Shown piece after piece: positions 8,700-29,524 of a DNA stretch of 64,000 nucleotides. Under the pieces are notes generated by a model. The model was given only the letters and a program-made list of their open reading frames with translations. It had not been told where the DNA came from and ran no database searches. The stretch comes from a virus: positions 45,058 to 109,057 of IMG/VR virus record IMGVR_UViG_3300028025_003409. One strand, given 5' to 3'. The stretch's first letter is position 1, and each line of letters begins with the position of its first letter. Position numbers and translations under genes: made by a program.

Positions 8700-9464
8700 T
8701 TAGTCGACAATAGTTTCTCTAGAACCAGGTTTATTGGCTTCAAAACCAAATATAAGGTTTGCTCTAGGCCCTATAGCAGACACTTCATGCCATAGTTCTT
8801 TAGGTATAAAGATTACATCTCCTGGCTCTAGGATAAACTCTGTAGGTTCTGAATCATACGCTTCTGATGTACGCCATCTTGTTTTGCCCAAACACTGAAG
8901 GTTAAGCACATCAGCGTTATCTCTATGCCTTGTTGAAGACTTGTCCCAATCGGTTACAGAAAATACAGAATTAATGTCTGTTAGTTCGCCATCATAGATT
9001 TCTGTCAATTCTCTAATATAGAAGTCTTTGTTTCTATAGTGATCGGATGTCTTAGGCGATACTAAATTGAATTCCCCCCAAAATTGTAAAATACCTATAA
9101 CCTTCTTGCCAGCCTTCTCAAATGCTTCATTTCTAAACATTGGATCATCATCATGTGCACAGGAGTTTACGTTATTTAAGAATTCTTCCCAATATGGAAG
9201 CATGTCTTTTGGGATAGCCCCTCTTAGAACTGTTCCAGTGTTTGTTAGTACTGCGTTTAGGATCTGATTATGATATAAGTCTTTTTTGTTGCAATCCTTA
9301 CATACCGTTTCTGAAAAAATTTTTACAGACAGGTTTTCTGGATCAGGCCTACCTAGGTCTTCCCAAAATTGTTCTCTACCCATGGAGTCAGTGTTAGGCA
9401 TTGCTTTTGATTCGAACTGGAATTCACTGTCCCAGGCATTTTCTAGATTGTCCAAAATTCCCAT
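8700..9464 (-). CDS. JmjC/cupin-like oxygenase
   Basis: HRD...QCLGKTRW...LEPGDVIFIPKELWHEV. Confidence 0.75.
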   Translation of the reverse strand: MGILDNLENAWDSEFQFESKAMPNTDSMGREQFWEDLGRPDPENLSVKIFSETVCKDCNKKDLYHNQILNAVLTNTGTVLRGAIPKDMLPYWEEFLNNVNSCAHDDDPMFRNEAFEKAGKKVIGILQFWGEFNLVSPKTSDHYRNKDFYIRELTEIYDGELTDINSVFSVTDWDKSSTRHRDNADVLNLQCLGKTRWRTSEAYDSEPTEFILEPGDVIFIPKELWHEVSAIGPRANLIFGFEANKPGSRETIVD

Positions 9465-10819: not shown

Positions 10820-11065
10820 TTATACTAGTATAATAACACATCTACCCCTAAAAGTCAAGTCCTAGCACGGCGTGTCGTGTGTGATATGCGTCACATGGGG
10901 ACGTGCATGATCTACCCCCTATACAGGTACCCCCTATCTAGGACGTGCCCTGTGGATAACCTGTGTATAACTATAGTGGTATACATCACATGTGTGCTAC
11001 ATCACAATGTCCAATTTATACCTTTTATACCCTCGTAAATGTCAGACCCCCCTGTTATACTTACT
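10820..11065. promoter_or_regulatory. divergent control hub of the early region
   Basis: leftward TTGACT promoter, CGGCGTGTCG, TGTGA-N6-TCACA (10880), GGACGTG x2, TACCCCCTAT x2, DnaA boxes (10951, 10962), rightward TGTCAG-N10-TATACT (11040). Confidence 0.75.
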
Positions 11066-11683: not shown

Positions 11684-11760
11684 ATAAAAACCAAGATCGC
11701 AGAAATAAAACTCTGCGATTTTTTGGGACGTCCCGTGTGATGCGAATCACATTCAAAATA

Positions 11761-11801
11761 CGGCGTGTCGTCTTGACTTTTTGAGATTTCTCTGCTATAC
11801 T
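11761..11801 (+). promoter_or_regulatory. SigA-type promoter with upstream GTGTC (GACAC) element
   Basis: CGGCGTGTCG-tc-TTGACT-17-TATACT with extended TG. Confidence 0.8.
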
Positions 11802-12048
11802 TCTAGTATAAAGAAAATTGAGAAAGGTTCTCAAATTGAAAGGAGTCCAAATGGACTATAACGAATACTATGATGAAATTTATCTAGAAATCTATGAGGA
11901 GTTTGGCGCTGAAAGCGTATCAGACCCAGCCTACGCTGAATCTCTAAAAAAGTGATGTAAATCACACAACGCCTACGGCGTGTCGCCTTGACTTTTCAGG
12001 GTATGTGTGATAGTCTTACTACATAAGAAAAACTAAATAAAGGACAAA

Positions 12049-12116
12049 TTGGCTAATGAGCCTAAGCAAATAAATGTGATACAAATCACAGTGAGCCTTA
12101 GCGAATAAGTAGCCGA
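12049..12116 (+). ncRNA. double-GAGCCUAGCAAAUAA structured RNA, copy C
   Basis: outer stem UUGGCUA/UAGCCGA, inner UGUGAU/AUCACA hairpin, downstream of TTGACT-17-TAGTCT. Confidence 0.55.
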
Positions 12117-12173
12117 AATGTCAGCCCCCAATGGTAAGATAGTCTTATCAAACAAACGAAAGGAAGTCTAAAA

Positions 12174-12371
12174 ATGACTTACACTATAACACTAGAAACC
12201 TTTTCAGGTTCTACAAAAAAAATCAACCTTGCCTCTAAGGGTGCGGTTGCTCAATTCATCTCAACTTATCCAACTCAACTACCTGTTGGCGTTGCTGTAA
12301 AAATCGCTTGCGATACCCTCGGAATTAGTGGCACACTTCGTGGCACTTCTACACTTACAAAATCAAACTAA
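12174..12371 (+). CDS. hypothetical early protein
   Basis: GAAAGGAAG RBS; follows TGTCAG-N10-TAAGAT promoter at 12119. Confidence 0.65.
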   Translation: MTYTITLETFSGSTKKINLASKGAVAQFISTYPTQLPVGVAVKIACDTLGISGTLRGTSTLTKSN

Positions 12372-12390
12372 AGAATAGGAAATAAAATAA

Positions 12391-12597
12391 ATGACTAAAG
12401 TAGAACACTCTCTAAAGTTCGTAACCGAGTTCGATGAAACTCACCCAGTAGCACTACAAGCACTATCTATCCCTCACTCAGATTTGGTTGCTATGCTTGA
12501 AGGAATGCTAAAAGATTTGCTAGTGCCTGCCCTCGGTCCTGTACTTGATGAAATAAATGCTCGTGGCACTTATGCAATTCTAAAGGTGGCCGAGTAA
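12391..12597 (+). CDS. hypothetical early protein
   Basis: AGGA RBS, operonic. Confidence 0.6.
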   Translation: MTKVEHSLKFVTEFDETHPVALQALSIPHSDLVAMLEGMLKDLLVPALGPVLDEINARGTYAILKVAE

Positions 12598-12782
12598 TGA
12601 TGACACGCAAGGACTATGTTGCAACTGCTGAAATTCTTTCATCATTCAAAGATTTGATAGGTGATGAATTTACTTTTCACGACTTAGTTGATGAATTTGG
12701 TTCAATGTTTGAAGCAGATAATCCAAGATTTGATTCAACTAAATTTTTTGAAGCGTGTAACAAAGACACTTACTAAATAAAA

Positions 12783-12810
12783 AAATCCTGAGCAAGATTT
12801 AAAACTGCTC
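12783..12810 (+). ncRNA. small H-type pseudoknot element, copy 1
   Basis: AAAUC/GAUUU and GAGCA/UGCUC interleaved stems. Confidence 0.6.
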
Positions 12811-13302
12811 CACACTCAAAATTTTGGGACGTCGCGTTCGGGCGTGTCGTCCACATGACGCAGATCACATTCAGAATTGAGCGTGAGTTATCCACATGAC
12901 CTACATCACATTTCAAAATGTCCGATTTGTGGCATTACTGGTCAGTAGATGTCAGACCCCCCTGCTATACTTACTAGTATAAAGAAAGTCAATCAAGGTG
13001 ATTGAACTAGAAAGGAATTCAAATGAATTCAACAATTATCAAGTGTGTAGAACACACACCCTTCAAGTCTGCTATCTCAGAGGTTGCAGATACACAATTT
13101 ACTTTTTGTGAAATTTGTGAAAATAACATTGAGCGTTGGTATAACGATACCGACCCTGAGCGTCTACCAATGTGGACAGATTGGAAGGTATCTAAATGAT
13201 AGACTTCGTAAAACAATTAGAATTAGAAAACTATCTTGCAGACGAGCAAGTAGACCCACTAGCAAAAATGCTAGATGAACTAATAAAGAAAGGAGAATAC
13301 AA

Positions 13303-13539
13303 ATGAGTCTATCCCTTGCTAATAAAATCGCAAAAGATAAATTCTTTCTGCCCCCTTCAAAATACATAAACCACAAAGTCGTGGAGATTGTATCTTTAAA
13401 TGAGGATAGCGGTATCGCTACTGTAATCCTAGAAAAATACACAATAGGCAGAAATGCTAATGTGTATAAAAATAATAATGTGTTCACAATTGAATTGCCT
13501 TATTCCGAATTTCAAAATCTAAATGGTTGGAGTGAATAA
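13303..13539 (+). CDS. hypothetical early protein
   Basis: AAAGGAG RBS. Confidence 0.6.
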   Translation: MSLSLANKIAKDKFFLPPSKYINHKVVEIVSLNEDSGIATVILEKYTIGRNANVYKNNNVFTIELPYSEFQNLNGWSE

Positions 13540-14182
13540 ATGAGTACCTATGTACCAATTAAATCTGTATGTGGTGCAGTAACTACCACAATTGACATCT
13601 ATGACATTGAGTTAAATCCTCACGGAGTAATCTGTTGCGATAACTGCAAGTCAATCATTCTATGCCGTAAGGCTTGGGATTTTCTATACAAGGAGAATAA
13701 GTAATGCCACTATTTGAATTTACAACATTTATAAATGTTGAAGCAGAAGACTATGACTCTGCTATTGCTATGTTTGACTCTAATTTAGAGTATGGTGGAA
13801 TTCGCAGAAGCGATGTTTATGTCGCAGAAATTGAGGAAAAGTAAAATGAGTTTTTATCAAACCTTTTTTGAAAGTGGCAACGCATTGTTTTGGTTTTCAA
13901 TGATCTGCTTAGCAAGTGGATTTTATTTATTTGTAAAAGAGTAGAAAAACGGGACGTCGCGTTCGGGCGTGTCGCCACGCTGTGAGATTTATCACATGGC
14001 TTGAGCGTCTCAGTATTTGGACTTACTGGCTAGTAACTTGATAATTTGTGAGTAATAGGCTAGACTTACATAGTAAGTAAAAATAAATAAAAGAAAGTCT
14101 ATCCCACTACGGCGTGTCTAACCGAAAATGTCAGACCCCTATGGTAGGATAGAATTATCAACAAAAAGAAAGAGGTTGGCAA

Positions 14183-14389
14183 ATGTCAGCAAATGTCTAT
14201 ACAATAGAACACCTACTTGTAGGAACACAATACCGCTCACGAACACTATCGGGAGAAATTATCTCAGCAGAGAAACACCCTAACGCAGTTTGGTATCAGG
14301 GTTGCGAAAGTTATCTAGTGGAAGTGCGCCCTAGTAATTTTGGAAAAGTCGTATGTCGCACAGTAGCAGTAAAGGTAGAAAATAACTAA
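14183..14389 (+). CDS. hypothetical early protein
   Basis: AGAGG RBS after TGTCAG-N10-TAGGAT promoter at 14129. Confidence 0.65.
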   Translation: MSANVYTIEHLLVGTQYRSRTLSGEIISAEKHPNAVWYQGCESYLVEVRPSNFGKVVCRTVAVKVENN

Positions 14390-14662
14390 TGGGATACATA
14401 GAGATTTTTAGAATTGACAATGAGGGTGCAGGTTGGATAGACTTGGACAATGCAACACCTAGCGAATTGCTAGACCTAGAAATTGGCTTATTTCAGGAAG
14501 GGGCTATCTAATGGGAGTAATGAAAGAATTGCACTTAGAGATAACTACTTGCGACCTATGCTATGGCACAGGTTGGCTATACTTTGGCAATAGCGAGGAC
14601 TTTGATACAGAGTCTTGCGATTGTAACCCACACCAACTATTTATAACTAAGGAGAATAACTA

Positions 14663-14881
14663 ATGAACGAATACCTATACTCAGTAACAACAACTAATGA
14701 CGGAGAGGCTAAGCCGAATTGGATTGGTCGCTACTCAGACGCACTAAGTGCCGTTGAAGTTTATCAGAGATTTATTGACCACGGATTTGCTAACGAATTC
14801 CGTACAGTAAATTTATCAGAGCCTAGTGGCAAAATGCATACAAAAATTTTGTATCGCAGTGGAATTGTGGGAGGTAAGTAA
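14663..14881 (+). CDS. hypothetical early protein
   Basis: AAGGAG RBS. Confidence 0.6.
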   Translation: MNEYLYSVTTTNDGEAKPNWIGRYSDALSAVEVYQRFIDHGFANEFRTVNLSEPSGKMHTKILYRSGIVGGK

Positions 14882-15042
14882 ATGGACATAACTACTTTTG
14901 CAAAAGGAATGAGCAAGATTGCTCCGAATTATGGCATAGGGTATGATAACTATGGTCAGGTTATTATTTATACTAACCTAAAAGAAACTGAAAATAATCA
15001 GTATGCAGAAATGTCAGATAACGATTTTGAGGAGAATAAATA

Positions 15043-15330
15043 ATGGGATCAGTTACAGCAATTGGATTAGCGGATAGCGTATTGGATTTAGAAACTCAAT
15101 TGGCGTATCACTTACAGGGTAATCACTATCCACCCGTACCACTTTCTATGGTTCAGCCTTGCATAGAAGCAATTGACGCATACTATGATGAGGACTATGA
15201 CCGATTTATTGCTATGCCTGAAGGCGTATTCTATAAGGGAATGAGCCACGCACCTGCCCACGCAATTGTAGACCAACACCACTTGTCTTGGTTTATTGAC
15301 CCAGTAGACGAATTTGAAGATGAGGAATAA
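15043..15330 (+). CDS. hypothetical early protein
   Basis: GAGGAG RBS; HLQGNHYPPVP motif. Confidence 0.65.
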   Translation: MGSVTAIGLADSVLDLETQLAYHLQGNHYPPVPLSMVQPCIEAIDAYYDEDYDRFIAMPEGVFYKGMSHAPAHAIVDQHHLSWFIDPVDEFEDEE

Positions 15331-15331
15331 A

Positions 15332-15574
15332 ATGAATGCTACAATGAGCGACATGGAACTAATCGAGGCAGATACACTTGCACCAGACCAACTAATGATT
15401 GGTGATTTAATAAAAGTAAACAATGACATTCTTGAAGTTATTTTTATTGAAAGTGATTCTACTGGAGATAACTACGATGTACAAGTAAAAAATGAATTTG
15501 ATGAATTAGAAATAATTCAATTTGCTTATACTGATTCTATTCCATTGTATGTTTTTATTGACTACGATGAATAA
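15332..15574 (+). CDS. small acidic beta-barrel-like hypothetical protein
   Basis: PDQLMIGDLI motif; GAGG RBS. Confidence 0.55.
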   Translation: MNATMSDMELIEADTLAPDQLMIGDLIKVNNDILEVIFIESDSTGDNYDVQVKNEFDELEIIQFAYTDSIPLYVFIDYDE

Positions 15575-15799
15575 GTAAAACTATTTTTATGCACTTCCCC
15601 GCATAAAAATGGGACGTCCCGCAGTCGGGCGTGTCTGTGTATATCCTGTGGATAACTATGTGCTACTCATGAGTAACCCTTTAAATATTTCTTTAAGATA
15701 GTTTATTTTATTTTCCCCGATTCTGGGCAAAATTTTTTGTGATTTTTATCACACGATCAGGATTTGACATTTTTATGATATGTGTGTTAGTATTGTTAT

Positions 15800-15946
15800 A
15801 TGAAAAAAACAAATGAGGAACTCCGCAGGCTTATGGAACTACGCCGTAGCAACGCTGCCTCTGCCGTGCCTTCTAAAAGGGCTTACAATCGAAAGAAATG
15901 TCAGTCCGAACTGTTACAATATAAATATCAACAAAAAGGAGAATAG
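15800..15946 (+). CDS. small basic leaderless protein
   Basis: ATG 6 nt after TTGACA..TAGTAT; MKKTNEELRRLMELRRSNAASAVPSKRAYNRKK. Confidence 0.55.
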   Translation: MKKTNEELRRLMELRRSNAASAVPSKRAYNRKKCQSELLQYKYQQKGE

Positions 15947-16109
15947 CCCATGACCTACGAAAACGATGAAATGCTAGATGAATACTATGCAACTGTATGC
16001 CCCTCATGCAAAGAAAATGCGGTAGACGCATATGAAGATAAATGCACTCATTGCTTACTAGAAGAAATGTCTGTCCACTATAACGAAGACATTGCTCTAG
16101 AAATGAGTC

Positions 16110-16850
16110 TTGGCCTTGACTACTGATACACTTAAACTTAAACGCTCTAATGATAGAAAGGTGGCTAATCTTGTCACAAAAAATGGAAAGCAAGCCGCAA
16201 TCGCAAATACCTTTGGACTACCTGCTGGAAAGGCTTTCTCGTGCCCTGGTGCCACTAGCGTATGTGAAAGCGTGTGCTATGCAGGAAAACTCGAAAAACT
16301 CTTCAAAGGCGTAAAGGCTAACCTCTTACACAATTGGACCTTACTTAAGGACGCCGATCAATTAACTATGGAGACACTGTTAACTGAAATGATTAACGAT
16401 TTCCGTGCAGACTGTGTAAAGAAAGACGCCCCTATGCTATTCCGTATCCATTGGGACGGAGATTTCTTTAATGATATATACACTCATGCATGGAAGAATG
16501 TAATCAATAACAATCCTGATATTCAATTCTGGGTATATACCCGTGTTAAGTCTGCTGCACTTATACTTAAGGATGTATCTAATCTATCATTGTACTTCTC
16601 TGCAGATAGTGAGAATGTAAAAACCGCCGTTGACTTAAAAATTAATAGTGGCGTACGTATGGCATACCTTGCTAAGAACTTTGCTATTGGTCAAGCCGAT
16701 GTAAAAGAAATGATAGGCAGACCTGCTGCTAAGTGTCCTGAGAATAATAAACAAATTCCACTTATCTCAACTAACGGTAGCGCTTGCGTTTCATGCTCAC
16801 TTTGTGTATACTCTAAGAGTGATATCATATTCTCTGCGAGTAAAAAATAA
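16110..16850 (+). CDS. GP88-like / radical-SAM-like Fe-S protein
   Basis: SCPGATSVCESVCYA, FRIHWDGDF, C-terminal CP...CxxCxxC. Confidence 0.7.
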   Translation: MALTTDTLKLKRSNDRKVANLVTKNGKQAAIANTFGLPAGKAFSCPGATSVCESVCYAGKLEKLFKGVKANLLHNWTLLKDADQLTMETLLTEMINDFRADCVKKDAPMLFRIHWDGDFFNDIYTHAWKNVINNNPDIQFWVYTRVKSAALILKDVSNLSLYFSADSENVKTAVDLKINSGVRMAYLAKNFAIGQADVKEMIGRPAAKCPENNKQIPLISTNGSACVSCSLCVYSKSDIIFSASKK

Positions 16851-17096
16851 ATGAGCACTGCATTCTATTTTTGGATAATGCTAATACTACTAATAAGTTT
16901 ATTAGGTGGTGGTGGTTGGTGATGATCCCCTGAAAAATGGGGACGTCGCAAAATCTTTGATTTGTCAAATTACGACACGCATAAAAAATGTGGGGTTTAT
17001 CACACTAGAAAATGTCATTTGGATTAGGATTTATGACATTTTTATGCTAAAATTATACTATAAGCAAAACCCCCACAACAGAAAGGCAAGACCCAA

Positions 17097-17267
17097 ATGA
17101 CACTAGGCGGATACACTTACCAAATTGGTGATTTATTCACAACCAGCAAAACAGGCATTACGGGACGCATTAGCGATTTCACCCCTGTCAATGCTAAACT
17201 AACTAGAGTTTCATTACGCTTGGCAAACGGCGCACACCGATTTGCTATGGTAAAGACCTCTAAGTAA
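17097..17267 (+). CDS. small SH3-like protein, paralog 1
   Basis: TYQIGDLFTTSKTGITGRI; own promoter and AGAAAGG RBS. Confidence 0.6.
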   Translation: MTLGGYTYQIGDLFTTSKTGITGRISDFTPVNAKLTRVSLRLANGAHRFAMVKTSK

Positions 17268-17374
17268 TCTCAAAATGTGAGAAAATGTCGAAATGGATTT
17301 GACATTTCTACAAGCAAAATGTTATACTTAGGTATAACCAAATAACAACCCCTAACAGAAAAGAGAAAAAACAA

Positions 17375-17539
17375 ATGGCAGTAAATACAGCAACATACAA
17401 GGTCGGCGATACTTTCACGACACAGAAGTCAAAGGTTAGCGGAGTAATCACAGAGATTACACCACAGGCTAACGGAAATGTCCGAGTAAAGTTAGATGTA
17501 GATGGCAAGCCACGCTACACAACTTGGACGGCTAAGTAA
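17375..17539 (+). CDS. small SH3-like protein, paralog 2
   Basis: TYKVGDTFTTQKSKVSGVI; TTGACA-18-TATACT promoter. Confidence 0.6.
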   Translation: MAVNTATYKVGDTFTTQKSKVSGVITEITPQANGNVRVKLDVDGKPRYTTWTAK

Positions 17540-17590
17540 TCTAATTACTAAGTGTCGGGCGTACAGGCACTATAAATAAGGGGCGAGAAC

Positions 17591-17618
17591 GAACCTGAGC
17601 AAGTTCCAAAAAGGCTCA
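17591..17618 (+). ncRNA. small H-type pseudoknot element, copy 2
   Basis: GAAC/GUUC and UGAGC/GCUCA. Confidence 0.5.
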
Positions 17619-17652
17619 ACACCCCCACTAACAGAAAAGGAAACAAAAACAA

Positions 17653-18075
17653 ATGGCAAGAGGCAAAGCAATCTCAGTAAAAATCCCTACTCAACGAGTA
17701 ATCACCGCACTAGAGTCTGCACTAGCAAAACTAGAGTCAGACTACGCATCACAAGAACAAAAGGAAGCACAGTACCAACTTCTATACAAGGCTTGGCAGA
17801 AAGAGTTAGCAGATTTCGCTATTGCTAATTTCTCAAAGGCTGAGAACATTAGAACAAACTTCCGTTCTTGGAACAAGACCCTCAACATTGACTTCGACAT
17901 TATTGGTAGCGAAAGCAATTTCCCTGCTGAACCTGAGAAGCAACACGAAACTATCCATCAGCACACTTATCGTGAGCAAAAAGAGGAAATGCAAAATGCA
18001 ATTCGTATCCTCAAAATGACAGATGAGGAAGTTGTAAATACTTCCACATACAATGCGGTTGCTCGCTATCTCTAA
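17653..18075 (+). CDS. hypothetical protein
   Basis: AAAGGA RBS, 140 aa. Confidence 0.7.
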   Translation: MARGKAISVKIPTQRVITALESALAKLESDYASQEQKEAQYQLLYKAWQKELADFAIANFSKAENIRTNFRSWNKTLNIDFDIIGSESNFPAEPEKQHETIHQHTYREQKEEMQNAIRILKMTDEEVVNTSTYNAVARYL

Positions 18076-18082
18076 GTGAGAT

Positions 18083-18264
18083 TGGGTGGGGTGTAAAAGC
18101 CCCACTCATTATCCCCTGAGTTCCACGCTATTTATAGCAAGTGTCCCCTGGGGATCCTTCGCCAGGCTGATTAGGGCGATAACAGAAATACTATAGAGCC
18201 AGTTCACACCAACTGCAAGAAGTGTAACTACCTGAGTAAGTATCAAAACTGCTCCCCGCAAGGG
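18083..18264 (+). ncRNA. run of structured RNA elements ending in pseudoknot copy 3
   Basis: successive stems UGGGUGGGGU/GCCCCACUCA, AUCCCC/GGGGAU, UCGCC/GGCGA, then UAC/GUA + GAGUA/UGCUC. Confidence 0.5.
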
Positions 18265-18329
18265 TCCTTGACAAATGTCAGTGGTCTCGTGTACAATTAA
18301 ATTAAACAAACTAACAGAAAGAGGCCCCC

Positions 18330-18749
18330 ATGGACCAAACAACAAACACAGTAGTGAATGCCACAGAAGACTTTCTTCGTGACTCACTAGCCAAAGCAAC
18401 ATTGCGTGTTACAGAATTAGAGGAGCACATCTCTAAGGTTACGCAGCGCTCATATGCAGAGTCTGCAGATAAGAATCGTATCGTTGAAGCAATGCAAGAG
18501 TGGACCCTTGGGGCCCTTGAGCACGGCACCATTGATGAATCAGATGCAGAAGAAATTGCAGACATCTGTGGATTTGAACTAACGAAAGAATTCGAAGTTG
18601 AAGTCACAGTCATGTATTCGGTTACCGTAAATGCTCGCACTGAAGAGGATGCACAGAATGCAATTCATGATATTGATTTTGATACTGTAGACTACAATTC
18701 AGATTCAATTTCATATCTATCATCCTCAATTGATAGAGTTGACATTTAG
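18330..18749 (+). CDS. acidic hypothetical protein
   Basis: AGAGG RBS after dual TTGACA/TGTCAG promoter at 18268-18297. Confidence 0.7.
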   Translation: MDQTTNTVVNATEDFLRDSLAKATLRVTELEEHISKVTQRSYAESADKNRIVEAMQEWTLGALEHGTIDESDAEEIADICGFELTKEFEVEVTVMYSVTVNARTEEDAQNAIHDIDFDTVDYNSDSISYLSSSIDRVDI

Positions 18750-18767
18750 TAGGGGGCTACTAACAAA

Positions 18768-18799
18768 AGACCTGAGCATGTCTGTACGTAAACTGCTCA
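18768..18799 (+). ncRNA. small H-type pseudoknot element, copy 4
   Basis: AGAC/GUCU and UGAGCA/UGCUCA. Confidence 0.6.
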
Positions 18800-18985
18800 T
18801 TTTTAAAATCCCTCAAAATTTGGGACGTCCCGCCGACCAGTCATTGTCAAATCGACACGCCGTTTACGAAGGGTGATCTTTGCCACAATGTTCGATTTAT
18901 CCACATCTAACTATCCCGATTTGCATATGTCAGTCAGTCCTGCTATACTTAGAATTCAACAACAAAAAGAAAGAAGGAAAAACCT

Positions 18986-20008
18986 ATGGCACATGACCTA
19001 GAAACTCAAAACGGAAAAACATCTTTTGCGTCTTTCCGTGAACCTGCTTGGCATGGATTGGGTACCGTATTCACAGAAGAGAAAACAACCGCAGAAATGC
19101 TAGAGGCTGCAAACCTCAATGGTTGGAATGTTCGTCTTGAGGATTTGGAAACCCCTACACATCTAACAAGCGACAAGGCGTACCAATATGTCTTGCGTAC
19201 AAATCCTACCGACAACACACAAACCGATATTCTTGGTGTAGTTGGTGAGCGATACCATGTTTTGCAGAATGAAGATTTATTCTCATTCGGTGATAACATT
19301 CTTGACGGCGGAGGTCGTTGGGAGACTGCTGGCTCAATCAAGGGTGGTCGTGTCGTGTTCGGTGCATTAGCACTAGAGCGTGAAACAATTCTTGACCCTA
19401 ATGGTGTTGCAGACAAGGTAAAAACTTATTTGCTCATCAACACATCACATGATGGCTCAATCGCTATTCAAGCAAGCATTACACCCGTTCGTGTCGTGTG
19501 CGCTAACACTCTCAATCTTGCGCTTGGTGGCGTAGGTCGTAAGAAGAATAAGGGTATCAAGCAATCTTTCAAGATTCGCCATACACAAACTGCAAATGGT
19601 AAAGTGCAAGTTGCTCGTGAGACTCTTGGTCTTGCTAATGCATACATGAACGAATTCGATATCATGGCTAAGGCAATGATTGAGAAAGAAGTTTCTGCTA
19701 AGCAATTCAACGACATCATTCTTGCTGCTTACGCTAAGCCTGAAAAGGATTCTAAGGGTTCACTAAAGAAGTGGGAAAATAAAGTTGATGTTATCAACGA
19801 TATTTACACTGGTGAATTCAATGGAATGATTGCGGGTAATGCGTGGGGTGCTTTCAATGCACTAACCGAACGCCTTGACTGGTATCGTTCTGCTCGTGGT
19901 GGTTCTAACGAATCTATCCTTGCAAGCGCAAGCGGATTTGACCCTGCTATCAACGCAGAAAAAAATCGCTTACTAAAAGTTGTGCAGAATGTAATGTCTC
20001 TCGCATAA
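18986..20008 (+). CDS. DUF932/DUF945 phage-plasmid family protein
   Basis: PAWHGLG, LGVVGERYHVLQN, WETAGSIKGG, SHDGS, RVVCANTL, IRHT. Confidence 0.85.
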   Translation: MAHDLETQNGKTSFASFREPAWHGLGTVFTEEKTTAEMLEAANLNGWNVRLEDLETPTHLTSDKAYQYVLRTNPTDNTQTDILGVVGERYHVLQNEDLFSFGDNILDGGGRWETAGSIKGGRVVFGALALERETILDPNGVADKVKTYLLINTSHDGSIAIQASITPVRVVCANTLNLALGGVGRKKNKGIKQSFKIRHTQTANGKVQVARETLGLANAYMNEFDIMAKAMIEKEVSAKQFNDIILAAYAKPEKDSKGSLKKWENKVDVINDIYTGEFNGMIAGNAWGAFNALTERLDWYRSARGGSNESILASASGFDPAINAEKNRLLKVVQNVMSLA

Positions 20009-20015
20009 TAAAAAA

Positions 20016-20043
20016 ATTCCTGAGCAAGAATAAAAACTGCTCA
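20016..20043 (+). ncRNA. small H-type pseudoknot element, copy 5
   Basis: AUUC/GAAU and UGAGCA/UGCUCA. Confidence 0.6.
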
Positions 20044-20049
20044 CCATTT

Positions 20050-20123
20050 GGTCCGTTAGAATAGTTGGTTAGTTCGCCACCCTGTCACGGTGGAGGTCAT
20101 GGGTTCAAGTCCCATACGGATCG
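20050..20123 (+). tRNA. tRNA-Asp (GTC)
   Basis: cloverleaf GGTCCGT/ACGGATC, anticodon arm CCACC-CTGTCAC-GGTGG, TTCAAGT T-loop. Confidence 0.92.
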
Positions 20124-20314
20124 CAAGTAAATAAATATGCAACGCAATGTATAAAAATTTGGGACGTCCCCTGTGACTTACATCACATGAGATTTTTAAC
20201 TAAATAACTTTACGATAGGGTGATATTTTCCCCAAAAATTCTTTACGATAGATTTGACTTTTTCCCCAAACCATGCGATAATTAATATATAACCCACTAA
20301 AAAAGGAAAACCCC

Positions 20315-20740
20315 ATGAGAGACAGATCAAAAGGATATATCGGTCAAATCGTTGACGGTAAAAAGTTAGCCACAATTGCAAATAATATCTATCGCCTACA
20401 GTATAGTAATGACTTTAGTGAGTGTACTGTAGATAATCTACTGTTCATTACCCTCGAAGAAACCAATGTCTTTGGAGACAACAAGTACGCCTTGGTTTGT
20501 TCAGAAGGAGTGGGCTGGGAGCAAGATACTTATGGATGTCTAGAAGTACCAACTAACATTGGCCAAATGGGTCTATGGAATGGAAGAGTATTTATATCAG
20601 TAGATACCGTTAAGGAATGTCTAACAGATCAAACAGAAGACATTGCAGACTATGTCCGTGTCTTTGGAGACAGACTAGATAGGAACTGTTCCCTGTGGCA
20701 GTCCAAGATGTCAGTGCCTAGTGCTATGATAAATGCATGA
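20315..20740 (+). CDS. hypothetical protein
   Basis: AAAGGA RBS. Confidence 0.65.
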   Translation: MRDRSKGYIGQIVDGKKLATIANNIYRLQYSNDFSECTVDNLLFITLEETNVFGDNKYALVCSEGVGWEQDTYGCLEVPTNIGQMGLWNGRVFISVDTVKECLTDQTEDIADYVRVFGDRLDRNCSLWQSKMSVPSAMINA

Positions 20741-21040
20741 ACACAATAAATGACCTTATAAACGAAATCTATGACGACAACTTCTCTCACCTTGAGTTTG
20801 AGGAGAATATGGGCGGTATCGATTGTGACTGCCATATCCACACTACACTAAACACTATTGCTAAGTATGCAGGGATTGAGGTAGGATAATGTTAGGCTAT
20901 ACTGAAACTGATATTGCAGTAATGACAGATGCTATGGAAGACGCTATCAAATCAGGTAGGCTCTCTGATGAGATAACAGATGGTTTGGAGAAGGCTATGT
21001 CTTTCTTTGATGGCCTATGGGCAGAAGGGTATTTTGACTA

Positions 21041-21247
21041 ATGAAAGTTAGAATCAGTCTTGAACAAACCATTGATATAGATGATGCTATGTCTAATGAT
21101 ATAGGGTTTGAACTCTATGGTCCCCCTGACATGAGCACTGAAGATAAAGTAGATTATCTAATGGCTCGCTTTGCTGAGGACATAGACACTATGGTAAAGT
21201 ATGATGAAGTATTGGGTAACATCTCAGTAGAATACATAGAGGACTAA
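21041..21247 (+). CDS. acidic hypothetical protein
   Basis: operonic ORF. Confidence 0.55.
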   Translation: MKVRISLEQTIDIDDAMSNDIGFELYGPPDMSTEDKVDYLMARFAEDIDTMVKYDEVLGNISVEYIED

Positions 21248-21248
21248 T

Positions 21249-21479
21249 ATGTGGAGTAGGTATACCTTTGTTTGTGATCCTGATGAGTGTGATGCCCTGG
21301 TTGAGTTTACTGCTAGGGATGACTTTGGATTTCCCCTGGGAGTTGTCGAAATGAGATGCCCTTGTGGTAGGATGTTAAACTATATTAGTTATGAAGAAGC
21401 CTATCAACCGATCATTACAGATGTGAGCAAGGTCACACCCCGTACAGTTGTCAAAATCGACTCGAACCCGTATAATTAA
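21249..21479 (+). CDS. small Cys-motif protein
   Basis: CDPDEC...CPCG; GAGG RBS. Confidence 0.6.
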   Translation: MWSRYTFVCDPDECDALVEFTARDDFGFPLGVVEMRCPCGRMLNYISYEEAYQPIITDVSKVTPRTVVKIDSNPYN

Positions 21480-21482
21480 TAT

Positions 21483-21683
21483 ATGAATACAATTATAGAA
21501 TATATGAAGTTACACCTGCTCAGTCTTGAACAAGACTCTGCTCACCTTGAAAAGCAAATGGATGCTTATTCTAACTATGAGGATGATGACTACCGTATGC
21601 TAGAGATTGAAGATATCTCTACTAATGGTCAGATTATCGCTACCGCCCACCTTTTGTCAGTGGCTCAGGGTATGATAGAGTAA
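21483..21683 (+). CDS. hypothetical leaderless protein
   Basis: TTGTCA-17-TATAAT directly upstream of ATG. Confidence 0.6.
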   Translation: MNTIIEYMKLHLLSLEQDSAHLEKQMDAYSNYEDDDYRMLEIEDISTNGQIIATAHLLSVAQGMIE

Positions 21684-21961
21684 TGGAAACAACACAACTA
21701 GAGCCAAGACTGCAAAGACTCATTGACCTAGGAGAGTCAGGCACTGACATACTCCATGGTGAACTCAAGAACTTAATGCTTGAGGCCGAAAAGGAATTCC
21801 TTGAGGCACAACAGATTGAAGAAGACAACGACTACTCAGACGCTATGGAGTCTATGGAGCGTAAGTACTGGGAAGGCCAGTGCGACGCATTAGCCCATGT
21901 CTATGCATTAACTTATCAACTAGCATTTGCTCTCAGTGACAGGATAAAGAACAATGGATAA
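21683..21961 (+). CDS. hypothetical protein
   Basis: TGTCAG-N10-TATGAT (21655) directly upstream of ATG. Confidence 0.6.
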   Translation: METTQLEPRLQRLIDLGESGTDILHGELKNLMLEAEKEFLEAQQIEEDNDYSDAMESMERKYWEGQCDALAHVYALTYQLAFALSDRIKNNG

Positions 21962-22487
21962 GTTTATCGAAATGGACTTTGACGAGTGGTGTGAGACCTA
22001 CAAGCCAATCGTTAATCATATAGATACAAATGCCTCATTTGACAATGGCGAGGGTGGCATTATGTTTGAGACCTACGGCGACGAGGTTGAGTTTGTAAAG
22101 CAGCAAGACGCTAATAAGATATGGATGTATGGGGACGGAGACGACGGTGGAAGTTATATCTGGTCTGGTTGGGGCTTTGTTAATAGGCTTGGTTATTTTA
22201 TCACTGATAAACCTTGCCCAGATAATGTGACCATTCAGGTACGAGTTAGTTACAATTGGTTCTACTGTGAAAACTGTGGGGCTGAGTTTGAAGACCCTGA
22301 TAATACTATCAGAGATAAGTTTGATGAGGCCGATTTGGAAAAATGCCCAAATTGTGCTACACTTGAAGAAATGACCCAAATAGAAAAAGGAGACCCAATG
22401 AAAGAAAATGAGCAAGTAGACGAAGTACTAGTAGACCCTGAACTGCTAAAAGATGTTTGGTTTGATTTAGGCAAGGACGGTAAGTAA
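21954..22487 (+). CDS. hypothetical protein with C-terminal zinc ribbon
   Basis: FETYG...GFVNRLGY; CENC...CPNC. Confidence 0.65.
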   Translation: MDKFIEMDFDEWCETYKPIVNHIDTNASFDNGEGGIMFETYGDEVEFVKQQDANKIWMYGDGDDGGSYIWSGWGFVNRLGYFITDKPCPDNVTIQVRVSYNWFYCENCGAEFEDPDNTIRDKFDEADLEKCPNCATLEEMTQIEKGDPMKENEQVDEVLVDPELLKDVWFDLGKDGK

Positions 22488-22632
22488 TGTCAACATACAA
22501 AGTAGAAGTAATCTTTGAGCCAACAGGCGACTACATGAATTTTAGATACGAGGCGGAATCAGACAATGAAGAGGACCTCTGCAGAGAAGTATTAAACCAA
22601 CTATCAATTGTATCTTGGAAGGATGAAGAGTA

Positions 22633-22992
22633 ATGGGAGCACGGATTAACTACGTATTCAAAGACAGTGAGCAGGGCCCTATGGTTGCTCTATACAGCCA
22701 TTGGGGTGAGACTGAGTGGCAGCGGGACCTAGCAATGGCGCTGCAGCATGCAAAACCCCGCTGGCAAGATTCTGCATATGGTACACGGATGATCATTAGT
22801 TATCTTATGCAAGACAGCATTCTAGAGGAGACAGGCTTTGGTATTTACGCTATTAGCAATGACGGGTCCCTTGACCTAGGTGACCTTACAGTACTAGTCG
22901 ACTTCACTACCAATACTGTTACTGATAGAGTTTCGGTACCGTTTGATAAATTCATGGATGCATATCTACCAGTTTTAGTTGAGCAGGCATAG
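22633..22992 (+). CDS. hypothetical protein
   Basis: MGAR...LYSHWG motif. Confidence 0.65.
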   Translation: MGARINYVFKDSEQGPMVALYSHWGETEWQRDLAMALQHAKPRWQDSAYGTRMIISYLMQDSILEETGFGIYAISNDGSLDLGDLTVLVDFTTNTVTDRVSVPFDKFMDAYLPVLVEQA

Positions 22993-23018
22993 ATCTAGGG
23001 TCAGACTGTGCCTAAGGG

Positions 23019-23043
23019 TGGGGGTAAGCGTGGGGCTTGCCTC
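23019..23043 (+). terminator. GC-rich hairpin, probable terminator
   Basis: GGGGGTAAGC-GTGGG-GCTTGCCTCC. Confidence 0.45.
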
Positions 23044-23082
23044 CCCCTAACTTTTGCGGTATAATGGAAGAGAGGAGGGACT

Positions 23083-23307
23083 ATGGCGTATTCAGTAAGA
23101 CGGAAAGCAGAGCATAACAAAGAGTCAAGAAAAGCAGAGCAGTTGGCAAAACTTCTTACAGAAGATTTCTCCATAGACCTAGAACGGGTTGGATACTATC
23201 TAGTAAGAAACATGCCCACAATCGTGTTTCATAGATTTGATGTTTTAGCCTTGACAGCACAAGAAGAGTATGATAAACTAATGGCAGAGATGAAGGGTAG
23301 ACTATAA
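23083..23307 (+). CDS. hypothetical protein
   Basis: AGGAGG RBS, TATAAT upstream. Confidence 0.65.
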   Translation: MAYSVRRKAEHNKESRKAEQLAKLLTEDFSIDLERVGYYLVRNMPTIVFHRFDVLALTAQEEYDKLMAEMKGRL

Positions 23308-23619
23308 ATGGATTTTGCAGATAAGGCTGGAGCGATTGGTCAGTTATGGATTGAGTTCCGTAATGATGAAGATTTCTCGGCATTCATGGATTACAACGAC
23401 CTAGGTTGTCCAATGGCATACATGGTGGCAGAAGGTTTGATTAAAGAACTTACACCTATTGGTGAAGAGATGATTACTGAAACATTTAAGATGTTTCTAG
23501 AGTTAGTTAATGTTACAGAGGAAGAGATTGACTCTGTACTTCCAGATAAGAACCTTGGTTCTATCTTGGTCTTTGCTCACAATAAGAAGAAAAACTCAAC
23601 ACCAGACGAAGAAGAGTAA
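23308..23619 (+). CDS. hypothetical protein
   Basis: operonic, acidic. Confidence 0.65.
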   Translation: MDFADKAGAIGQLWIEFRNDEDFSAFMDYNDLGCPMAYMVAEGLIKELTPIGEEMITETFKMFLELVNVTEEEIDSVLPDKNLGSILVFAHNKKKNSTPDEEE

Positions 23620-23699
23620 CAAGATTATCCTTGATCCCTGGGCTTGACAAAAGCCTGGGGTTATGGGACGTCTCAGGACGTCAAATCGGACATATCGGA

Positions 23700-24650
23700 C
23701 AAACCTCTCAAACCTTATATTTCTAAAAATAAGATTACGAAGGGGTTTTTTCTTTTCCCCAATCATGGACAAACCATCTTTCTCAAAAAAAGATTACGTA
23801 GCACAAAAACCTTTCCCCATTCATGGCTTATACCATATCAAACCTTGTTTGTCAAACCTTTATATTTGGTGTTATAATAAAGATATGAGTCCAAGACACT
23901 TTGCAAACTATGCAAAACAATATCCTAAACAATATCAGGCATTCTCCGATAACATGTGGAATAGTTTTGTAGGTATTACTCATACTATAGGTTTGGGTAG
24001 ATTCTTTTCATTCACCCCCGAATTTTTAGCGCCCCCGCTCACCAAGGCATCTGGCGTTTTTGCTGAAGCAGATCTTGAAGCATTAGATCCCACCAAAATC
24101 GGGCGGGAATTAGGCAAGGTATACAATCAAACACTACCTGATAACAAACCTCTATAGTATAAAACCCTCTATAGAATAGATTACGAACCCTTGATTATTT
24201 TTCCCAGAGTTTTAGAATATTATCCAAACCTTTATATAATTTTATAAAGGTTTTCTTTATTTTCTGAGCAAATTCGAACAAATTTCATATGAATTTTATG
24301 GGCATATTCATGCATAGAAGGACTTGACAAACCATGGTTTTGCATGTATAATGCCCAAACCTTACTATGGGAAAGAAGGTTTGACAATATCGGGAATATG
24401 TGGTAAGAAGGTTTGAAGGTTTGGGATATGGAGGTTTGGCCGTAAGAAGATTACGACGCCTTCTATAAAAGCGCTCTATCCTCCACTACTCTCCACTTTA
24501 CTCCACTTCTAGACTATCTAATTAAATAATCAGTAACATTTATCTGTGGATAAACCTGTGGATAACTATGATCAAAACCTTACAAACCAGACATTACGAA
24601 CCTAACAATATATCTCCCAAACCTCACAACCTGTGGATAACTGCTATACT
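23700..24650. other. putative replication origin-like locus
   Basis: many CAAACCT/AGGTTTG copies switching strand near 24370, perfect TTGACA-17-TATAAT, CTCCACT x3 at 10-bp period, AT-rich stretch, three TGTGGATAA DnaA boxes. Confidence 0.55.
23885..24157 (+). CDS. hypothetical leaderless protein
   Basis: TGTTATAAT followed by ATG 23885; upstream part of track ORF 23663 is regulatory DNA. Confidence 0.5.
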   Translation: MSPRHFANYAKQYPKQYQAFSDNMWNSFVGITHTIGLGRFFSFTPEFLAPPLTKASGVFAEADLEALDPTKIGRELGKVYNQTLPDNKPL

Positions 24651-28837: not shown

Positions 28838-29524
28838 TTATAATGTGTGTCTTTCTGTTTGATTTCTTGTATAATCTTTTCCAAAGTCAGCAAACAAGGC
28901 TTTATCTTTTTCACGATTAACAATCCCTCTTGACCAAGAAAACCCTGCATCTCCACCCCACGCTAACCACATAATGTAGCCATTAGATGGGTTTGCTGAG
29001 TTGCCCCAGTCCTTACCCTTCTTATCTACTTCATGGCGTGAGAAATATGAGTACATTCTCTTGACAGTACTAAGAGAGATTGTTTCTCCTCTTGCTAACT
29101 GCCCTGCACGAGTCCAACCTACAGATGTTCCAGCACCATTAGCCTTACCATCTTCCTTAAACTTAATTGCTCTGCGAGCAGCAGATCGTGCTCCAGCAGG
29201 TGGTGAGTATCCATCAGCCTTTGAAACCGTGTCTGTATCATACTCAACAGTATCATCATCTTCAAATAGATCATCTGCTTTTGCAGCAGGAACACAATTA
29301 GGAACTGGTTTTCCATTATCTCCTGGCTTCATGCCACGCTGTACATAACCTTCCCAGCATGGATCAGCCTTTCCAATTGATGAGTCATACATGGCCATAG
29401 AAACCTCTGAATCGGTGTTTGGAGAGCATACAGGACAGTCTGGGCAGTCTACATTAAGTTCTTTGCAAGTCTCACATTCGCAACCCTGATATGTGCTTGT
29501 AGGCATCATTGAATCATCTATCAT
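28838..29524 (-). CDS. multi-motif phage protein, possibly head-associated
   Basis: Cys-rich N-terminus, PCWEGYVQRGMK...VPNCVP motif, VKRMYSYFSRH...WLAWGGDAG domain. Confidence 0.6.
   Translation of the reverse strand: MIDDSMMPTSTYQGCECETCKELNVDCPDCPVCSPNTDSEVSMAMYDSSIGKADPCWEGYVQRGMKPGDNGKPVPNCVPAAKADDLFEDDDTVEYDTDTVSKADGYSPPAGARSAARRAIKFKEDGKANGAGTSVGWTRAGQLARGETISLSTVKRMYSYFSRHEVDKKGKDWGNSANPSNGYIMWLAWGGDAGFSWSRGIVNREKDKALFADFGKDYTRNQTERHTL

What the first reader, a model, noticed from the sequence alone, without database searches (positions are those of the whole stretch)
11725..23682. GGGACGTC punctuates the early region into self-contained gene modules
Seen: eight co-oriented intergenic copies (11725, 12826, 13951, 15611, 16940, 18822, 20161, 23665), four extended to the palindrome GGGACGTCCC. 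Each follows the end of a gene block (terminator hairpin, pseudoknot or A/T tract) and precedes a fresh set of regulator sites and promoters. I saw none elsewhere in the window; by rough estimate fewer than one is expected in 64 kb at this composition. Inference, alternatives: recombination junctions of a cassette-shuffling array of host-takeover genes; programmed nick, modification or pause sites for stepwise DNA entry; or binding sites for a phage repressor. The core GACGTC is also a type II restriction target, so deliberate restriction or methylation sensing is possible. With the PafBC, WhiA, CRP and DnaA sites this looks like one modular host-sensing system.
Basis: partly seen in the sequence, partly recalled or inferred. 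Interest (0 to 1): 0.85.

Follow-up and report, generated by a model that had tools for sequence, protein, structure and literature searches.

The report
Lineage-specific boundary word in phage early cassettes
GGGACGTC marks the head of each early-gene control region in an uncultured 109-kb lake phage; related phages keep the layout but each lineage uses its own short GC-rich, restriction-site-like word, so some unidentified sequence-specific factor must read it.

Summary
GGGACGTC occurs 8 times on the + strand at the stated coordinates (0.29 expected). Four copies are GGGACGTCCC. The core GACGTC occurs nowhere else in the whole 109,057-bp genome.

Each copy lies 7-90 nt after the previous cassette's last gene or tRNA. 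It precedes the shared regulator-like sites and promoters.

Among about 150 related lake-phage loci and 10 complete relatives, cassette order is conserved, but the word at the orthologous spots differs by lineage. Examples are GACGTC, CACGTG, CTCGGG, GGCGCC, CCTAGG, CCCGGG, GCCAGCC and GCCGAC. The word sits in either orientation, its flanks stay orthologous, and it is absent from the rest of each genome.

These words look like type II restriction sites and are depleted in all lineages. I found no phage methyltransferase.

Two adjacent small genes (23083-23619) show the strongest association with word type, and this replicated on new contigs. They fail at fine scale: GACGTC and CTCGGG lineages have no discriminating residue.

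Cassette shuffling at the motif is not supported. Nicking and modification could not be tested.

An earlier report of this scan (e1-5977240) reached the same "boundary word" reading on a related phage.

The parts
11725..11734 (+). Boundary word copy 1, GGGACGTCCC. It directly follows a terminator hairpin and T-run.
12826..12833 (+). Boundary word copy 2, GGGACGTC. The shared box GGGCGTGTCG follows at 12840-12849.
13951..13958 (+). Boundary word copy 3, 7 nt after the upstream ORF stop. GGGCGTGTCG follows at 13965-13974.
15611..15620 (+). Boundary word copy 4, GGGACGTCCC. It comes straight after an AU-rich 12-bp hairpin at 15581-15612, whose last two paired bases overlap the word.
16940..16947 (+). 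Boundary word copy 5. As RNA it would pair with the upstream GAUGAUCCCC.
18822..18831 (+). Boundary word copy 6 (site A), GGGACGTCCC, 164 nt upstream of the DUF932 gene. Its orthologous position was aligned in 80 relatives.
20161..20170 (+). Boundary word copy 7 (site B), GGGACGTCCC, 37 nt after tRNA-Asp. Its orthologous position was aligned in 72 relatives.
23665..23682 (+). Boundary word copy 8 plus a second GGACGTC at 23676-23682. The site lies 46 nt after the 103-aa gene, follows a strong hairpin (about 23636-23660), and precedes CGGACA repeats and an origin-like non-coding region.
10897..10948 (+). Two near-copies with a hybrid core, GGGGACGTGC and TAGGACGTGC. Each combines a GACGTC half with a CACGTG half. 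They lie in the first early control region.
23083..23307 (+). 74-aa early gene, predicted as three helices with a basic N-terminus. It associates with word type at coarse scale and is a candidate partner or reader.
23308..23619 (+). 103-aa early gene, a six-helix acidic protein (pLDDT 93). It shows the strongest association with word type of any gene tested, but no residue separates GACGTC from CTCGGG lineages.
11693..11724 (+). Intrinsic-terminator-like hairpin plus U-run that ends the cassette before copy 1.

Best explanation
GGGACGTC(CC) is this lineage's version of a 'boundary word'. It is a short, GC-rich, mostly palindromic recognition site placed at the head of every early-cassette control region, just after the previous cassette's terminator and A/T run, and before the shared regulator-like sites and promoters.

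Shown: the position is conserved across a large family of lake phages. The word itself is swapped between lineages while the flanks stay orthologous. All copies within a genome carry the same word, and the word is excluded from the rest of that genome.

Inferred: a sequence-specific, probably dimeric, DNA-binding factor particular to the lineage reads all copies at once. It would act as an insulator or roadblock between cassettes, or as a common switch that shuts the early programme off. It might also tell a phage's own DNA from that of co-infecting relatives. This would work in the manner of stoperators.

The adjacent early genes 23083-23307 and 23308-23619 are the best phage-encoded candidates at coarse scale only.
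For: Enrichment and exclusivity. Whole-genome confinement of each lineage word is seen in 8 of the 10 complete relatives: GGACGTC in G001, G008 and G009, CACGTG in G002 and G007, CTCGGG in G003 and G006, GGCCAGC in G005. No confined word was resolved in G004 or G010.

Swapped word, orthologous flanks: at the orthologous sites the flanks are conserved and the word is replaced. For example, the window has GGGACGTCCCGCC where L039 has CCTCGGGGCGCAG, before the same downstream sequence. The same holds after tRNA-Asp.

Independent sites agree: two separate intergenic sites of one genome share a lineage-specific GC-rich 6-mer in nearly every locus. Ninety-two loci could be labelled, giving 11 classes.

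Symmetric recognition: orientation flips between sites in L012, L056, L071 and L032. Many words are palindromic, and half-site hybrids (GACGTG) exist. All this fits a symmetric reader.

Not a promoter element: the distance to the promoters varies (54-285 nt) while the distance to the previous gene end is short.

Gene association: in a region that is mosaic gene by gene, only the 103-aa gene follows word class across 11 genomes. Among genes present in most loci, the pair has the largest identity gap between same-word and different-word loci: 0.77 vs 0.54 and 0.77 vs 0.49, against gaps of 0.03-0.11 for all others. For the 103-aa gene alone this replicated on 19 new contigs (73.5 vs 51.7%); the 74-aa gene's gap there (85.2 vs 74.3) was not the second largest.
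Against: No alignment column of either candidate protein separates GACGTC lineages (16 sequences) from CTCGGG (9) or GGCGCC (7) lineages. L158 carries CCTCGGGGGC with a window-type 103-aa protein. L167-171 and L200 carry GACGTC with CTCGGG-type proteins.

The 103-aa protein has a net charge of about -15, which is unlike a DNA binder. Neither model matches a known DNA-binding fold (Foldseek E > 1; VIA-align Z < 5).

No gene is exclusive to one word class, and 48 core families show no discriminating columns. The columns that best split GACGTC from CTCGGG genomes lie in tail genes, which points as much to the host as to a phage reader.

No binding, transcript or modification data exist.
Confidence: 0.4

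Rival explanations
1. The words are recognition sequences of restriction-modification systems, or other sequence-specific host proteins, that differ between host strains. The phage purges them everywhere else but keeps them at cassette heads. A host enzyme or methylase would then gate or mark the early region, and word switches would track host switches.
For: Most words are classic type II sites: GACGTC, CACGTG, GGCGCC, CYCGRG, CCCGGG, CCTAGG and CAGCTG.

These and other palindromes are strongly depleted in all 11 genomes: TGCGCA 0 against 76 expected, CGATCG 0 against 21, CTCGAG 0 against 11, CCCGGG and GGCCGG 0.

The word switches repeatedly between close relatives without a matching phage protein change. 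Tail genes carry the most columns that split GACGTC from CTCGGG genomes. No phage methyltransferase was found.
Against: Keeping 6-9 cleavable sites in what, by its gene layout and promoters, looks like the first-expressed DNA should be lethal, and no benefit is known. Several words are not palindromic or not known restriction sites (GCCAGCC, GCCGACC, TCGACCCGC, GTCGGGC). The host is unknown, so nothing on the host side was tested. Depletion of the words in all lineages could equally come from a shared gene pool exposed to many phage-encoded readers.
Confidence: 0.25
2. The words are programmed single-strand nick or cleavage sites made by a phage endonuclease. This would resemble the site-specific nicks of T5 virion DNA, and would serve stepwise entry, replication priming or transcript ending.
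For: All eight copies in this genome lie on one strand in the early block. Exclusion of the word elsewhere fits a nuclease target. Relatives in Streptomyces carry the DUF932 gene in a region present twice per record, suggesting a long terminal repeat as in T5 or SPO1.
Against: Half the copies are palindromic, and relatives have the word in either orientation, so there is no strand logic. No class-specific nuclease gene was found. There are no read-end data.
Confidence: 0.1
3. The words are recombination junctions for cassette shuffling. They would work like PeSL regulatory cassettes or integron sites, with the word as the crossover point.
For: The region is an array of small-gene cassettes, each with promoter and terminator. 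A few genes change cassette between genomes: families 61 and 88.
Against: Cassette order and word positions are syntenic in all 11 genomes whatever the word. Mosaic breakpoints occur between almost any two adjacent genes, including inside cassettes. Eight bases are too short for homologous exchange, and no class-linked recombinase was noticed among the proteins that were scanned, although no recombinase or integrase family was searched for specifically. Shuffling does not explain why the word differs by lineage yet is uniform within a genome.
Confidence: 0.05
4. There is no specific reader. A GC-rich clamp after the A/T run would be needed only for its composition or as part of the terminator, and would be homogenised within a genome by gene conversion between similar control regions.
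For: Every lineage has a GC-rich patch at this spot in a 38% G+C genome. Control regions share many repeats that could support conversion.
Against: Identity within a genome is exact over 8-10 nt, while the immediate flanks differ between sites of the same genome and are orthologous between genomes. That pattern is the opposite of conversion tracts. Exclusion of the word from the rest of the genome is unexplained. Hairpin context is heterogeneous.
Confidence: 0.07
5. The word is a promoter element (a -35-like box) for a lineage-specific sigma factor or phage RNA polymerase.
For: T7-type phages change promoter specificity between relatives. The weak structural rows for the 103-aa model include sigma region 4 chains (Z 3.6-3.7).
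Against: No conserved -10-like element lies at fixed spacing downstream of the eight copies. Orientation flips in relatives. No phage RNA polymerase was seen, and the giant 3183-aa protein is a tape measure. The Z values are within noise for helical proteins.
Confidence: 0.03

Closest known systems
Stoperators of Cluster A mycobacteriophages (L5, Bxb1; PMC6550527)
   Same: Both are a short site repeated in many intergenic places of one phage genome. In both, the consensus differs between related phages. Both are read as a transcription roadblock and as the basis of self versus non-self discrimination.
   Different: Stoperators are 13-bp asymmetric sites, 20-30 per genome, spread genome-wide and mostly co-oriented with transcription. 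They are bound by a known immunity repressor whose divergence tracks the motif (PMC6550527).

Here the word is 6-10 bp and often palindromic. There are 6-9 copies, confined to the early block of a phage whose gene content looked lytic (no integrase or repressor gene was noticed, but none was specifically searched for). Orientation is free in relatives. The word changes wholesale rather than gradually, and no reader tracks it at fine scale.
PeSL (promoter-early stem-loop) cassettes of T4-type phages (PMC2839356)
   Same: Both involve arrays of small non-essential early genes. In both, each gene set is framed by a strong sigma-70-type promoter and a stem-loop terminator, within a hyperplastic mosaic region.
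   Different: PeSLs themselves are the recombining repeats and create shuffling and mini-circles. Here cassette order is conserved, and the distinctive feature is an extra lineage-specific word between terminator and promoter.
Type II restriction targets and restriction-site avoidance in phages (e.g. AatII GACGTC; general knowledge)
   Same: The words are 6-bp GC-rich palindromes identical to known restriction targets, and they are purged from the rest of the genomes.
   Different: Avoidance predicts zero copies. Here 6-9 copies are kept at fixed functional positions, and which site is kept differs by lineage.
Site-specific nicks of T5 virion DNA (own knowledge, not re-read here)
   Same: Both are a small set of defined sites on one strand of a large siphovirus genome with an early region of small genes.
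   Different: T5 nicks are spread over the genome. Nothing here shows strand breaks, and relatives have no strand logic.

Membership tests
Stoperator system (Cluster A mycobacteriophages) | 20-30 copies of a 13-bp asymmetric site distributed through the genome | tested here: not met
   There are 8 copies of an 8-10 bp word, half of them palindromic, all within 12 kb and none elsewhere in 109 kb.
Stoperator system (Cluster A mycobacteriophages) | [quoted passage not shown] | tested here: inconclusive
   All 8 copies are on the + strand in this genome. Four are palindromes, and relatives carry their word in either orientation.
Stoperator system (Cluster A mycobacteriophages) | Motif divergence tracks divergence of the cognate repressor | tested here: inconclusive
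   The 103-aa and 74-aa gene pair associates with word class at coarse scale. No residue separates the GACGTC, CTCGGG and GGCGCC classes.
Stoperator system (Cluster A mycobacteriophages) | Repressor binding blocks elongation | not testable with these tools
   This needs EMSA or transcription assays.
PeSL regulatory cassettes (T4-type phages) | A strong early promoter plus stem-loop terminator unit between small early genes | tested here: met
   Repeated promoter families D1-D3 and consensus promoters are present, and hairpins precede most motif copies.
PeSL regulatory cassettes (T4-type phages) | Recombination between the units drives gain, loss and reordering of cassettes | tested here: not met
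   Cassette order is syntenic in 11 genomes. Mosaic breakpoints fall at most gene boundaries, not specifically at the word.
Restriction-modification target (AatII-type GACGTC) | A short palindromic recognition sequence that is avoided elsewhere in the genome | tested here: met
   GACGTC has 0 copies outside the early block against about 5 expected. Related words are depleted in all lineages.
Restriction-modification target (AatII-type GACGTC) | A cognate methyltransferase or endonuclease encoded by the phage | tested here: not met
   PF00145 and PF01555 gave no match in G000, G002, G004, G005 and G006. No class-specific gene was found.
Restriction-modification target (AatII-type GACGTC) | A cognate enzyme in the host | not testable with these tools
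   The host is unknown (uncultured lake phage). No host-side search was made.
T5-type nick sites | Strand-specific interruptions in virion DNA at the sites | not testable with these tools
Chi-like recombination hotspots | An orientation-dependent, host-specific octamer that is not excluded from the genome | tested here: not met
   Orientation is free in relatives, and the word is excluded from the rest of each genome.

The most novel reading that the evidence does not exclude
The boundary words are the recognition sequences of host-strain restriction-modification systems (AatII-, PmlI-, NarI-, AvaI-, SmaI-, AvrII- and PvuII-like). The phage erases them everywhere except at the heads of its early cassettes. 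It would thus use a host restriction enzyme or methylase as a strain-specific gate or mark for its first-expressed DNA, and word switches between close relatives would record host-strain switches.
Probability: 0.15. Interest if true: 0.9.

Novelty: new variant of a known kind. Interest (0 to 1): 0.62.

Why it matters
If a lineage-specific reader exists, this is an addressing system in a very abundant, uncultured group of lake phages, probably of low-GC Actinobacteria. The phage's gene content looked lytic. Closely related phages would carry mutually exclusive 'passwords' on an otherwise shared early control architecture.

That would bear on how co-infecting relatives exclude or ignore each other, and on how early programmes are insulated and shut off.

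The overlap of the passwords with restriction targets that are purged elsewhere raises a second possibility: phages may put host restriction-modification specificity to regulatory use.

The comparative data give concrete tests: many natural word variants at orthologous positions, and two candidate genes.

Tried and rejected
**Near and distant DNA searches of cultured phages.** There was no near match. Only a short DUF932 stretch matches Streptomyces phages. The 103-aa protein has no tblastn match in cultured phages.

**Search for a reader.**
- Whole-protein covariation over 92 single-copy families.
- Discriminating columns in 48 core families: at most 2.
- 60-aa segment presence or absence. 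The hits were a tape-measure segment and a modular Cys-rich protein (28838-29524) that is not class-consistent.
- The class-restricted genes 8700-9464 (JmjC/cupin) and 15950-16126 turned out to be widespread.
- Column scan of all 925 ORFs for GACGTC versus CTCGGG genomes: the top hits are tail genes.

**Function of the candidate pair.**
- Pfam and PHROGs gave no match.
- Fold searches of both models gave no significant match.
- The ESM Atlas gave no usable hit.
- Longer proteins carrying the 103-aa domain gave only zinc-ribbon and TPR hints.

**Other tests.**
- A first replicate with words counted over whole regions was too noisy to use. It was redone with the two-site method.
- A promoter reading was rejected, because no fixed -10 element follows the word.
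- An N4-like virion RNA polymerase reading of the giant protein was rejected, because it is a tape measure.

Full report
**What is there.** GGGACGTC occurs eight times on the + strand at exactly the coordinates given. Shuffles expect 0.29 copies. Four copies are the palindrome GGGACGTCCC. The window is the second half of a single 109,057-bp contig with overlapping ends, at 38% G+C. In that whole genome the core GACGTC occurs nine times, all in this 12-kb stretch.

The genome is an uncultured phage. It has a DnaE-type polymerase closest to Streptomyces cluster BK/BE phages at 52-55%, a 3183-aa tape measure, a terminase and tRNAs. Relatives are numerous in IMG/VR metagenome virus contigs: 430 and 556 or more hits.

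**Anatomy.** The motif lies in a block of small + strand genes (about 10.6-28.7 kb) organised as cassettes. Each copy sits 7-90 nt after the previous ORF or tRNA-Asp and 154-477 nt before the next gene. It usually follows a hairpin and an A/T run.

Downstream come boxes that every related lineage shares: GGCGTGTCG in either orientation, TGTGA-N6-TCACA and DnaA boxes. Then come repeated promoters of the form TGTCAG-N10-TATACT, at 54-285 nt. The variable spacing, and the lack of a fixed -10 element, argue against a promoter element.

**Comparative result.** I aligned two orthologous spots in 80 loci fetched around the DUF932 gene: upstream of that gene, and after tRNA-Asp. The flanks are conserved, but the 7-12 nt after the A/T run differ by lineage. 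The words seen include:
- GGGACGTCCC
- GCACGTG(G/C) and CCACGTGG
- CCTCGGGGC
- CTAGCG and CCTAGGGG
- GCCAGCC
- GCCGACC
- CCGGCCCG
- TTTTCGACCCGC
- GTCGGGC
- CCCGGG

The two independent spots of a genome share the same lineage word in nearly every locus. Further intergenic regions of the same genome carry it too.

In eight of the ten complete relatives, each lineage word is confined to the early block and is absent, or nearly so, elsewhere: GGACGTC in G001, G008 and G009, CACGTG in G002 and G007, CTCGGG in G003 and G006, and 4 of 5 GGCCAGC copies in G005. No confined word was resolved in G004 or G010. Orientation can differ between sites of one genome (L012, L056, L071, L032). Half-site hybrids such as GACGTG occur, including two near-copies in this window at 10897 and 10939.

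A second, independently fetched set added new classes: GGGGCGCCCC, CAGCTG and CCTAGG. Of 92 loci that could be labelled, 26 carry GACGTC, 15 CTCGGG, 13 CACGTG, 11 GCCAGC and 9 GGCGCC. Six smaller classes make up the rest.

**Restriction flavour.** Most words are classic type II targets. Across the 11 genomes these and other palindromes are strongly depleted: TGCGCA 0 against 76 expected, CGATCG 0 against 21, CTCGAG 0 against 11, CCCGGG and GGCCGG 0, and CTCGGG about 0 except where it is the lineage word. No C5 or N6/N4 DNA methyltransferase domain was found in five genomes.

**Cassette shuffling.** Gene-family maps show the same cassette order, and the same word positions, in all 11 genomes. 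Only a few genes move. Identity of each early gene of this phage to the ten relatives changes from gene to gene, also inside cassettes. Recombination is therefore frequent but not focused on the word.

In this mosaic background, linkage is broken almost everywhere, so covariation is informative.

Two adjacent genes, 23083-23307 (74 aa) and 23308-23619 (103 aa), sit at the end of the last cassette before the final motif copy. Among genes present in most loci, they have by far the largest difference in DNA identity between same-word and different-word loci: 0.77 vs 0.49 and 0.77 vs 0.54, against differences of 0.03-0.11 for all others. This includes the gene directly upstream of them.

Their sequence clusters map roughly one-to-one onto word types. 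Only the 103-aa gene follows word class across the 11 genomes. On 19 contigs not used before, the 103-aa gene again showed the largest gap, 73.5 vs 51.7%.

The association fails at fine scale, however. No alignment column of either protein separates 16 GACGTC sequences from 9 CTCGGG or 7 GGCGCC sequences. L158 has the CTCGGG word with a window-type protein, and L167-171 and L200 have GACGTC with CTCGGG-type proteins. The word has therefore switched repeatedly without a matching change in these proteins.

The 103-aa protein is very acidic. It folds confidently into six helices (pLDDT 93) with no significant PDB match. The 74-aa protein forms three helices with a basic N-terminus. The 103-aa family is large, with 911 clusters at 50% identity, and is absent from cultured phages.

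No gene or 60-aa segment is exclusive to one word class. The columns that best split GACGTC from CTCGGG genomes lie in tail genes next to the tape measure. This may reflect lineage or host.

**Reading.** Several features together indicate selection for recognition by a sequence-specific factor that reads all copies of a genome:
- exact identity of the word within a genome
- replacement between genomes at orthologous positions
- free orientation and frequent dyad symmetry
- exclusion of the word from the rest of the genome

The position, after the terminator and before the control sites, fits an insulator or roadblock, or a common early switch. The closest described analogue is the stoperator system (PMC6550527). 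It differs in site size, number, distribution and symmetry, and in having a known co-varying repressor.

The candidate pair would at best be part of a phage-encoded reader.

**Relation to earlier work of this scan.** A follow-up on a related 112-kb phage (e1-5977240) reached the same 'lineage-specific boundary word, reader unidentified' reading.
- the whole-genome exclusivity of the word
- the link to restriction-site depletion
- the test and rejection of shuffling
- the candidate gene pair, with its replication and its fine-scale failure

Noticed in passing
whole genome G000 and relatives G001-G010: There is very strong avoidance of certain palindromes and words across all 11 genomes: TGCGCA 0 against 76 expected, CGATCG 0 against 21, CTCGAG 0 against 11, GCACGC 3 against 59, and GGATCC at half the expected count. 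CACGTG is fully avoided in some lineages but at expectation in G003-G006.
   Followed up: partly
window 12787-12815, 17594-17622, 18231-18259, 20019-20047 (also about 18773-18800): A conserved hairpin family, CCTGAGCA-N-AAACTGCTC, recurs at cassette ends and directly before tRNA-Asp, and is kept in most relatives. It could be a terminator or an RNA processing signal.
   Followed up: no
window 12840-12849, 13965-13974 and others; all related loci: The box GGCGTGTCG, in either orientation, is shared by all lineages. It often lies 0-8 nt from the variable word. In some lineages the word overlaps it (GGCCAGCGTGTCG, CCTAGCGTGTCG).
   Followed up: partly
window 23308-23619: The 103-aa acidic protein belongs to a very large uncharacterised family: 911 clusters at 50% identity, some fused to longer proteins. 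Its six-helix model is confident (pLDDT 93) and has no PDB fold match.
   Followed up: partly
window 28838-29524 (- strand): This is a modular protein built from a 6-Cys CxCxxC...CxxCxxC unit, a PCWEGYVQRGMKPG unit and a conserved C-terminal domain. The units are shuffled, duplicated or split in relatives.
   Followed up: partly
window 8700-9464 (- strand): This protein has an N-terminal stretch of about 60 aa conserved in nearly all relatives, followed by a variable C-terminus. Here the C-terminus is a JmjC/cupin domain.
   Followed up: partly
window 23683-24650: A largely non-coding, origin-like region directly follows the last motif copy. It has a perfect TTGACA-17-TATAAT at 24324-24352 and DnaA-box-like repeats at 24555 and 24630. 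Other first-reader notes of this scan (e1-5995496, e1-5995481) also flagged it.
   Followed up: no
G000:C1:12050-21601 (outside the window): The tape measure protein is 3183 aa long, which implies an unusually long tail.
   Followed up: partly
L170, L176-L185; L208, L210; L205: Further lineage words turned up in the second locus set: the palindrome GGGGCGCCCC, CAGCTG(G), and CCTAGG (9 copies in L205).
   Followed up: partly
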